Source of the DNA: Candidatus Hodarchaeota archaeon
Lineage (GTDB): Archaea; Asgardarchaeota; Lokiarchaeia; Sigyniarchaeales; SOKP01
NCBI GenBank assembly: GCA_048887225.1
Contig: JBHLJY010000006.1
Span: 78,238-142,237 of the forward strand
DNA length: 64,000 bases
Reading direction: 5' to 3'
Part shown: piece by piece, positions 12,602 through 13,954 of the stretch
Layout: each line of letters begins with the position of its first letter
Numbering within the stretch: the stretch's first letter is position 1
Notes under the pieces: model-generated
What the model was told of the DNA's origin: nothing
Seen by the model: the letters and a program-made list of their open reading frames with translations, nothing else
Database searches by the model: none
Translations under genes and position numbers: made by a program

Positions 12602-13954
12602 GGCTTCTTCAACCCCTCTTCATTTGCCATTACAATAACGGCTGCATAAGCGGCTCCTGGACCTCCGATCGAATGAGCAATGGACCGACCTTTTTCAATT
12701 GTGACTTGGTGTTTGCCAGCATCTCCTCTAATCTGAAGAGCGGCCTCTCCTGTGCTCATTATACCAGTCGCGCCCACAGCATGTCCACAGCCAATTAAGC
12801 CTCCCGAAGGACAGCATGGCAATTCACCATTTAGCCAAGGACCTTCGCCGGGCTTTTCGAAAGAATTTTCAATCCAAGGACCGCCTTCTCCGAATGGTAC
12901 AAAGCCTAATTCTTCATAAGAAATTACTTCTTGACCGCTAAACGCATCGTGGAGCTCTGCAACATCGATTTGTTCCTTAATCTTGTTGTAGTCGAGCCCT
13001 GCCATTTTATAAGCTGCTTTAGCAGCTTCAATGTTTGAATAAAGCCGACCAATGCTCTCTCTGTTTCCGATAAAACAATCTGTATTTGCAGCAGCGACTC
13101 CGGTTATCCATGTAGGCTTTTCCACGCCGAGTTCTTTTACTTTTTGTTCGTTTGCAAGGATTAATGCGGCAGAAGCCTCGGAATAAAGACAGCAATCCAG
13201 GAGTTTGAAGGGATAACAGATAATTCTTGAGTACATAACGTCTTCGACGGTTACCTTCATTGGCGATTGAGCCTTTGGGTTGAGCAGAGCGTTCCCATGA
13301 TTTTTAATGGAAACCATAGCCATATAAGCCAAAAGTTGAAAATATTCAACTGATTGTTTGCTCTTCGGTCGGGTTTCCAAATTCTTTGTAATGTGCATTT
13401 ACCATAGAAACATATGAAGATGCCGCCATCATGCCCATAGGATATTTACGGAATATCGCGAAATGCGAATTAAATTCTTTCATAAGTCATATCCGCAGAA
13501 TAGGCAATGGCATTTAATACTTCTGGTGTTGTAACTCCTGTTTGCTAACGCTTTAAACTAAATATTTACAAGATTCGTCATAACAGTCGTTACATTTCTC
13601 CAAACCAATGCAGAGACACAAATCCGACAATCCAGATGCAACTTCAGCATAAGCCATTCTCACAGTATAACCTCCCGTTGCTCCGCCCGACGCAATTCTC
13701 GTGCCAGGTTTGTCATTCATGCCAAGATAACTATTAGTAAATATATCGGGCATGAATTGGCGTTCAAAAAGCTCATTATAAATTCCATAAACCGTGGACT
13801 GCAAATCTTTATGTATAATCTCTGCCCCGTTTTTATTTGCATCATCAAGAGCCAATCTAGTGGCATCAAACGCCAGCTCAAAATACGTTTTATCAAGATA
13901 CCTTGCTCTAAAAGGAGTAATGCCTACTCCGATTATCGCAACTCTATTTGGCAT
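12598..13954 (-). CDS. SCP2-type thiolase-fold protein, 4 exons: join(13954..13574, 13544..13479, 13444..13358, 13323..12598), 419 aa
   Basis: Removing three short inserts gives a continuous frame: ...GLEKCNDCYDE|QTGVTTPEVLNAIAYSADMTYE|YPMGMMAASSYVSMVNAHYKEFGNPTEEQ|MAMVSIKNHGNALLNPKAQ...; VAIIGVG, ELHDAF and SGGLIGCGHAVGATG motifs. Confidence 0.9.
13324..13357 (-). other. BHB intron 3 in thiolase mRNA (34 nt)
   Basis: Central helix GAGC/GCUU, bulges AA^A and AU^A, intron stem CAA/UUG plus AGUUGAA/UUCAACU; in-frame TGA; excision joins CAA|ATG. Confidence 0.88.
13445..13478 (-). other. BHB intron 2 in thiolase mRNA (34 nt)
   Basis: Central helix UAUG/CGUA, bulges AA^A and AA^U, intron stem GAAU/AUUC plus UCGC/GCGA; in-frame TAA; excision joins GAA|TAT. 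Confidence 0.88.
13545..13573 (-). other. BHB intron 1 in thiolase mRNA (29 nt)
   Basis: Central helix GACG/CGUU, bulges AA^U and AG^C, intron stem CUU/AAG plus UAAA/UUUA; in-frame TAA; excision joins GAA|CAA. Confidence 0.88.

What the first reader, a model, noticed from the sequence alone, without database searches (positions are those of the whole stretch)
13545..13573. Intron 1 (29 nt): BHB with the best-formed exon-exon helix
Minus-strand RNA reads UGUU-A-U-[GACG]-AA^U-CUU-G-UAAA-UAUUUAG-UUUA-AAG-[CGUU]-AG^C-A-AACA. The outer exon helix UGUU/AACA (1-nt bulge), central 4-bp helix and inner stem are all present. The intron sits right after the EKCNDCYDE motif, and retention stops translation at TAA, giving the 133-aa ORF in the track.
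Basis: seen in the sequence. Interest (0 to 1): 0.85.

Follow-up and report, generated by a model that had tools for sequence, protein, structure and literature searches.

The report
tRNA-type mini-intron in Asgard thiolase gene
A 29-base insert, one of three, breaks a conserved thiolase-like gene of a Loki-type Asgard archaeon and has the RNA shape that archaea cut out of tRNAs, so the message almost certainly has to be spliced; in the papers I could search this is shown for the coding region of only one archaeal gene (cbf5), and I could not check any RNA.

Summary
Confirmed. Minus-strand 13573-13545 is a 29-nt bulge-helix-bulge (BHB) insert, the first of three (29, 34, 34 nt) in a thiolase-fold gene of a Promethearchaeota (Loki) archaeon. 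Removing all three gives a 419-aa protein, gap-free and 96% identical to an intronless ortholog. The homology-defined boundaries match the EndA cut register. Of 80 orthologs, 18 carry 28-35-nt inserts; with the window's three, 30 inserts sit at nine sites, and 25 have a full 4-bp central helix (3% expected per register). Nine other genes have an insert at intron 1's site, where a silent exon base covaries with the intron. The exon-exon helix is longer than reported and enriched in carriers (10/10 versus 16/80). All exons are under purifying selection. The genome encodes two EndA paralogs and RtcB, whose own gene has a BHB insert. Caveats: the 3' bulge is relaxed in the minimum-energy fold, and no RNA was available, so splicing is inferred. 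In print I found only cbf5 and a Haloferax 5'-UTR intron. This scan has noted the same phenomenon on many other Asgard genomes (unchecked AI notes). New variant of a known kind.

The parts
13574..13954 (-). Exon 1 (381 nt, residues 1-127) of the thiolase-fold gene
   Evidence: weak Thiolase_N match below cut-off
13545..13573 (-). Intron 1, 29 nt, BHB; shifts the frame and holds TAA at 13555-13553
13576..13579 (-). Exonic strand of the 4-bp central helix (GACG); C13577 is the silent third base of Asp126
13573..13575 (-). 5' 3-nt bulge, predicted cut between 13574 and 13573
13551..13572 (-). Intron inner hairpin (7 bp, bulged G, 7-nt loop at 13564-13558)
13547..13550 (-). Intronic strand of the central helix (CGUU)
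13544..13546 (-). 3' 3-nt bulge (relaxed), predicted cut between 13545 and 13544
13582..13594 (-). 5' arm of the exon-exon helix (6 bp, GA loop, 5 bp)
13530..13542 (-). 3' arm of the exon-exon helix
13479..13544 (-). Exon 2 (66 nt, residues 128-149)
13445..13478 (-). Intron 2, 34 nt, BHB with central helix UAUG/CGUA
   Evidence: same site in L076 and L077
13358..13444 (-). Exon 3 (87 nt, residues 150-178)
13324..13357 (-). Intron 3, 34 nt, BHB with central helix GAGC/GCUU
   Evidence: site unique among 90 orthologs
12598..13323 (-). Exon 4 (726 nt, residues 179-419 and stop), carrying the HDAF and GHA motifs
12104..12601 (-). Overlapping downstream DUF35/ChsH2 zinc-ribbon + OB-fold gene (likely partner)
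11733..12101 (-). Third gene of the probable operon, SCP2-like
   Evidence: no Pfam hit itself; the syntenic gene in relatives hits PF02036

Best explanation
13573-13545 is a genuine pre-mRNA intron of the archaeal BHB type. Shown from sequence and comparison: the insert, its boundaries, the fold, conservation of the joined protein, and the presence of EndA and RtcB genes. Inferred from known archaeal biochemistry: the transcript folds locally so that the last 6 nt of exon 1 and the last 6 nt of the intron form two 3-nt bulges around a 4-bp helix. The two-subunit splicing endonuclease cuts after the second base of each bulge, and RtcB joins the exons, which the 11-bp exon-exon helix holds together. 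Introns 2 and 3 are removed the same way, and only the triple-spliced mRNA encodes the 419-aa enzyme; unspliced RNA gives a 133-aa fragment without the C-terminal domain. The three introns were most likely gained on this lineage's own branch at sites whose codons allow a BHB, and silent exon positions have since been selected to keep the helix (inferred).
For: Joined ORF: 419 aa, no gaps, 96% identical to intronless L001. Independent protein-to-DNA alignment recovers the same three inserts. 30 inserts of 28-35 nt at 9 sites; 25 have 4/4 central pairs at a protein-preserving register, the other 5 have 3/4; 3.0% expected per register from shuffles; 15 of 30 also have 2 or more contiguous inner pairs, against 0 of 457 protein-breaking registers. 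At intron 1's site in 10 genes, 99% of cells pair and the silent Asp126 base covaries with the intron (U-A 5, C-G 4, U-G 1), against 32-61% pairing for slid registers. Core outer helix present in 10/10 carriers against 16/80 non-carriers, Asp123 GAC in 9/10 against 17/80, and excess flank identity confined to 12 nt on each side. Changes on the window's branch: 110 synonymous, 10 non-synonymous, in all four exons. No close intact paralog in the genome; the next best is about 30% identical. Two EndA paralogs, one with the Tyr/His/Lys motifs, and RtcB are present, as are tRNA genes with inserts. Precedent: cbf5 (PMC2738675).
Against: No RNA evidence was obtained. The strict 3' bulge is 1.9 kcal/mol above the minimum-energy fold. 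Carriers are related, so the counts are not fully independent (6-7 changes on the tree). Five of the ten site-381 carriers were fetched because they are truncated there, so they do not measure frequency. Intron 2's BHB competes with other folds in long windows (pair probability 0.11 at 701 nt).
Confidence: 0.93

Rival explanations
1. The gene is a recent pseudogene that collected small hairpin insertions, and nothing is spliced.
For: Unspliced, the gene is broken three times; close relatives lack the inserts.
Against: There is no other lesion; the window's branch has 110 synonymous against 10 non-synonymous changes. There is no backup ortholog. Inserts recur at the same nucleotide in other lineages with compensatory pairing. 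One ortholog carries four inserts with otherwise intact exons (L157).
Confidence: 0.02
2. The ribosome bypasses the 29 nt (translational hopping or frameshifting), with no RNA cutting.
For: A hairpin and a stop follow the take-off point, as in known bypassing (own knowledge).
Against: The take-off codon is GAA, but the triplet before the resume codon is UAG, so there is no matched landing codon. Inserts of 28-35 nt occur in all three frames, and pairing is conserved in the EndA geometry.
Confidence: 0.015
3. The insert is excised at DNA level (a tiny mobile or phase-variable element), and only cells that lost it express the gene.
For: Presence is patchy across close relatives.
Against: No target-site duplication or terminal repeat at intron 1. 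No second copy within 7 mismatches other than one AT-rich chance match. The conserved pairing includes G.U pairs and exon bases, which is an RNA signature.
Confidence: 0.015
4. EndA cuts the BHB mainly to destroy or limit the mRNA, making it a regulatory cleavage site, and productive ligation is rare or conditional.
For: An EndA-processed intron affects expression of Haloferax HVO_1309 (PMC7714728). The ligase gene rtcB carries such an insert itself.
Against: The protein can only be made by ligation and is under purifying selection. Most orthologs do without any intron, which fits tolerated, near-neutral introns better than a conserved switch.
Confidence: 0.02

Closest known systems
cbf5 pre-mRNA intron of Desulfurococcales and Sulfolobales (Watanabe 2002; Yoshinari 2006; Yokobori 2009, PMC2738675)
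   Same: Short intron in a coding sequence; BHB or relaxed BHB at the boundaries; cuts between the 2nd and 3rd bulge bases; variable interior; host with a hetero-oligomeric EndA; patchy presence across relatives.
   Different: cbf5 has one intron at one ancestral site (the catalytic Asp codon) in an RNA-modification gene, and splicing was shown by cDNA. Here there are three introns in one metabolic gene and up to four in an ortholog, at nine sites, needing at least 6 gains or losses at this site alone. The host is an Asgard archaeon, and splicing has not been shown.
Non-canonical tRNA introns of Asgard archaea (PMC11291895; bioRxiv 10.64898/2026.10.13.758758)
   Same: Same motif and similar size (median 22-23 nt there), repeated and often terminal-branch gains, EndA mostly present as two paralogs.
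   Different: Those papers treat tRNA genes; my term searches of both found no mRNA introns.
5'-UTR BHB intron of Haloferax volcanii HVO_1309 (PMC7714728)
   Same: EndA-processed intron in an mRNA.
   Different: Lies outside the coding sequence, so no reading frame depends on it.

Membership tests
Archaeal BHB intron (EndA/RtcB-spliced) | 4-bp central helix formed by the 5' exon end and the intron 3' end | tested here: met
   4/4 pairs, probability 0.88-0.93; compensatory change across 10 carriers
Archaeal BHB intron (EndA/RtcB-spliced) | Two 3-nt bulges on opposite strands | tested here: inconclusive
   5' bulge unpaired at 0.92-0.97. The first A of the 3' bulge pairs with U13580 in the model, and the strict form is 1.9 kcal/mol higher. 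Relaxed forms are the rule for cbf5
Archaeal BHB intron (EndA/RtcB-spliced) | Splice points after the second base of each bulge coincide with independently defined boundaries | tested here: met
   Protein alignment allows three placements, and the BHB register is one of them
Archaeal BHB intron (EndA/RtcB-spliced) | Flanking helices (intron-intron and exon-exon) | tested here: met
   7-bp inner stem; 5+6-bp outer helix, enriched in carriers
Archaeal BHB intron (EndA/RtcB-spliced) | Host encodes EndA and RtcB | tested here: met
   Two PF01974 genes and one PF01139 gene, itself split by a BHB insert
Archaeal BHB intron (EndA/RtcB-spliced) | Spliced RNA exists and EndA makes the cuts | not testable with these tools
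   No RNA run could be listed; needs RT-PCR or RNA-seq and in vitro cleavage
cbf5 intron family | Sits in cbf5 at the catalytic Asp codon | tested here: not met
   Host is a thiolase-fold gene
Group I / group II self-splicing introns | Ribozyme core of hundreds of bases | tested here: not met
   29 nt; no Rfam match at E up to 1
Spliceosomal GU-AG introns | GU at the 5' end with AG at the 3' end | tested here: not met
   None of the three allowed placements starts with GU, and the related inserts mostly start with A and end AA, AU, AC or UC

The most novel reading that the evidence does not exclude
Loki-type Asgard archaea routinely splice multi-intron mRNAs with the tRNA machinery, and these micro-introns are mobile: intron 1 would be a copy of an intron family from another site (its core resembles the site-542 introns and shares a loop with other introns of this genome) that moved into, or replaced the resident at, a BHB-permissive hot spot. 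[quoted passage not shown]
Probability: 0.3. Interest if true: 0.9.

Novelty: new variant of a known kind. Interest (0 to 1): 0.78.

Why it matters
A 2020 paper still names cbf5 as the only BHB intron reported in an archaeal mRNA besides its own 5'-UTR case (PMC7714728). A four-exon metabolic gene with exons of 66 and 87 nt, orthologs interrupted at nine sites, and an intron in the ligase gene itself would show that mRNA splicing with repeated intron gain is ordinary in Asgard archaea. That bears on what RNA processing the host lineage of eukaryotes had before the spliceosome, although the chemistry is unrelated to spliceosomal splicing. There is a practical cost too: public collections hold the truncated products as separate proteins (a 227-member cluster; the 14 other members listed end within a few residues of these sites), so Asgard gene catalogues are mis-annotated. 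The thiolase family also gives a direct test bed for how exon sequence adapts to a new intron.

Tried and rejected
A junction pattern search in metagenome contigs returned only two intronless orthologs at 75-78% DNA identity, not transcripts of this gene. No protein identical to the spliced product was among those returned (best 96%). A reference-free genome scan for BHB motifs that join reading frames showed no excess over decoy geometries or off-by-one controls; it has too little power and, by design, misses intron 1 because exon 2 is short. Its strictest filter gave 5 candidates against 2 and 0 in controls, and one of the five looks like a boundary between two genes (GH130 and GT4). One scan timed out. 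No close copy of the three introns elsewhere in the genome and no loop motif in the tRNA inserts. A long co-conversion tract as the cause of shared flanks was not supported: excess identity ends about 12 nt from the junction, though a short patch is not excluded. No terminator-like signal and no excess of promoter-like sites (a sigma-70 scan is not suited to archaea). Five paper searches for Asgard mRNA introns found none; Tocchini-Valentini 2011 was not held, and subscription journals are not covered. No structure prediction was run, as it would not bear on splicing.

Full report
Observation. The 29-nt segment 13573-13545 follows the codons for residues 119-127 and, if kept, stops translation at TAA 13555-13553, giving the 133-aa ORF. 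The region folds well (z -2.7), and the four central pairs hold at probability 0.88-0.93 whether 61 or 701 nt are folded. Shuffling the insert gives four pairable central positions in 110 of 5000 trials and puts them in the best fold in 30. The model prefers to pair the first base of the 3' bulge, and the strict BHB costs 1.9 kcal/mol more. A Logan contig is identical over 2603 nt.

The gene. Removing this insert alone does not restore the frame. Two more inserts follow, 13478-13445 and 13357-13324, both 34 nt and both BHB-shaped. Removing all three yields 419 residues that align without a gap to intronless orthologs, 96% to L001. The relatives are mostly labelled Promethearchaeota, that is Loki-type Asgard archaea. 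The protein has a thiolase fold, closest among solved structures to archaeal acetoacetyl-CoA thiolase 6ESQ, but with Gly at the nucleophilic Cys position and the HDAF and GHA motifs kept. It is followed by a DUF35 gene and an SCP2-like gene. No paralog in the genome exceeds about 32% identity. On the window's branch I counted 110 synonymous and 10 non-synonymous codon changes over all four exons, so the gene has been kept functional.

Orthologs. A protein-to-DNA alignment that knows nothing of RNA structure found inserts of 28-35 nt in 18 of 80 loci. The neighbouring DUF35 (75 loci) and SCP2-like (71 loci) genes showed none. With the window's three, 30 inserts fall at nine sites. In 25 a protein-preserving placement gives four central pairs in the EndA register, and the rest give three; shuffles give 3.0% per register. 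With two contiguous inner pairs also required, 15 of 30 pass, against 0 of 457 protein-breaking registers. Truncated database proteins led to five more distinct carriers, one with four introns.

Intron 1's site. Ten distinct genes have an insert after nucleotide 381. Across them 99% of cells pair, slid registers reach 32-61%, and the silent third base of Asp126 tracks its intron partner: U-A five times, C-G four, U-G once. The core outer helix is in 10/10 carriers and 16/80 non-carriers, and the Asp123 codon that gives a C-G pair is in 9/10 against 17/80. Among distant pairs the excess exon identity of carriers is limited to 12 nt on each side (0.89 against 0.78; further out 0.84 against 0.84). 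With the same intron grafted into each ortholog, the window's flanks rank first of 86. Kin are not independent, but the tree needs at least six changes at this site.

History. The window's gene is nested among four intronless orthologs with strong support, so three gains on its own branch are the simplest reading; repeated loss is not excluded. Two things remain unexplained. The window's flanks are identical over 32-41 nt with three distant carriers, which selection on the helix explains adequately but a short lateral patch could too. And intron 1's interior differs from the 30-nt family at the same site and resembles the introns of site 542 (best-of-44 test, p about 0.03, chosen after seeing the data), sharing a loop with two other candidate introns in this genome. 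That is a weak hint of relocation.

Machinery. The genome has two EndA paralogs, one with the Tyr, His and Lys motifs, and one rtcB. rtcB itself is split by a 29-nt BHB insert just before the DINCG motif. The same insert is in two of the relatives searched, while 30 of 30 other copies read through.

Mechanism and status. EndA cleavage after the second base of each bulge followed by RtcB ligation is inferred from established archaeal tRNA and cbf5 splicing (PMC2738675); it was not observed. Pseudogene, ribosomal bypass, DNA excision and cleavage-only readings each fail on specific evidence given under rivals. I put productive splicing at 0.93.

Comparison and novelty. It works like the cbf5 intron and meets the testable BHB criteria apart from a relaxed 3' bulge, but it is not the cbf5 intron. 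Papers on Asgard introns that I could search treat tRNAs only, and a 2020 paper lists cbf5 as the sole earlier mRNA case; the 2009 paper mentions untested predictions in other genes. Earlier notes of this scan report the same phenomenon in this genome and at least 67 genomes. They are unchecked leads and are not counted as support. Verdict: real, very probably spliced, a new variant of a known kind; interest 0.78.

Noticed in passing
G000 C13:33458-33486 (L083); G002 (L143); G021 (L144): The only rtcB (splicing ligase) gene carries a 29-nt BHB insert with four Watson-Crick central pairs and an 8-bp stem, just before the DINCG motif; shared with two relatives, absent from 30 others. A possible feedback loop.
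   Followed up: partly
G000 C12:16601-16631 minus (L163): 31-nt BHB insert near the start of a CCG-domain (HdrB-like) gene; its removal joins the frames, and its loop resembles that of intron 1.
   Followed up: partly
G000 C1:321212-321243 plus (L164): 32-nt BHB insert near the end of a DeoC/LacD-family aldolase gene; removal joins the frames.
   Followed up: partly
G000 C5:194127-194163 plus and C26:22501-22524 minus: Two more hits of the strict BHB scan; the second looks like a tRNA intron, and the first was not examined.
   Followed up: no
window 12598-13954, 12104-12601, 11733-12101: Thiolase-fold protein lacking the nucleophilic Cys, followed by DUF35 and SCP2-like genes; resembles Ltp2/Sal-type aldolases that partner DUF35, though nearer in sequence to archaeal thiolase.
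   Followed up: partly
L069 (two copies), L071/L078, L057/L063: Some genomes hold two copies of this gene that differ in intron content, including one intronless and one intron-bearing copy on the same contig.
   Followed up: no
L038, L039, L056, L101 (site 444): Inserts at this site have only 3 of 4 central pairs in the three carriers scored, so the enzyme must accept relaxed motifs; their 24-nt exon flanks are identical across distant carriers.
   Followed up: partly
protein cluster of window 13556-13954 (P0060-P0074): A 227-member cluster of truncated N-terminal fragments; the listed members end at or just after the intron sites, so public annotations miss these introns.
   Followed up: partly
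window 17709-17847 and 15155-15291: A 139-nt stretch at 87% identity occurs twice in the window.
   Followed up: no
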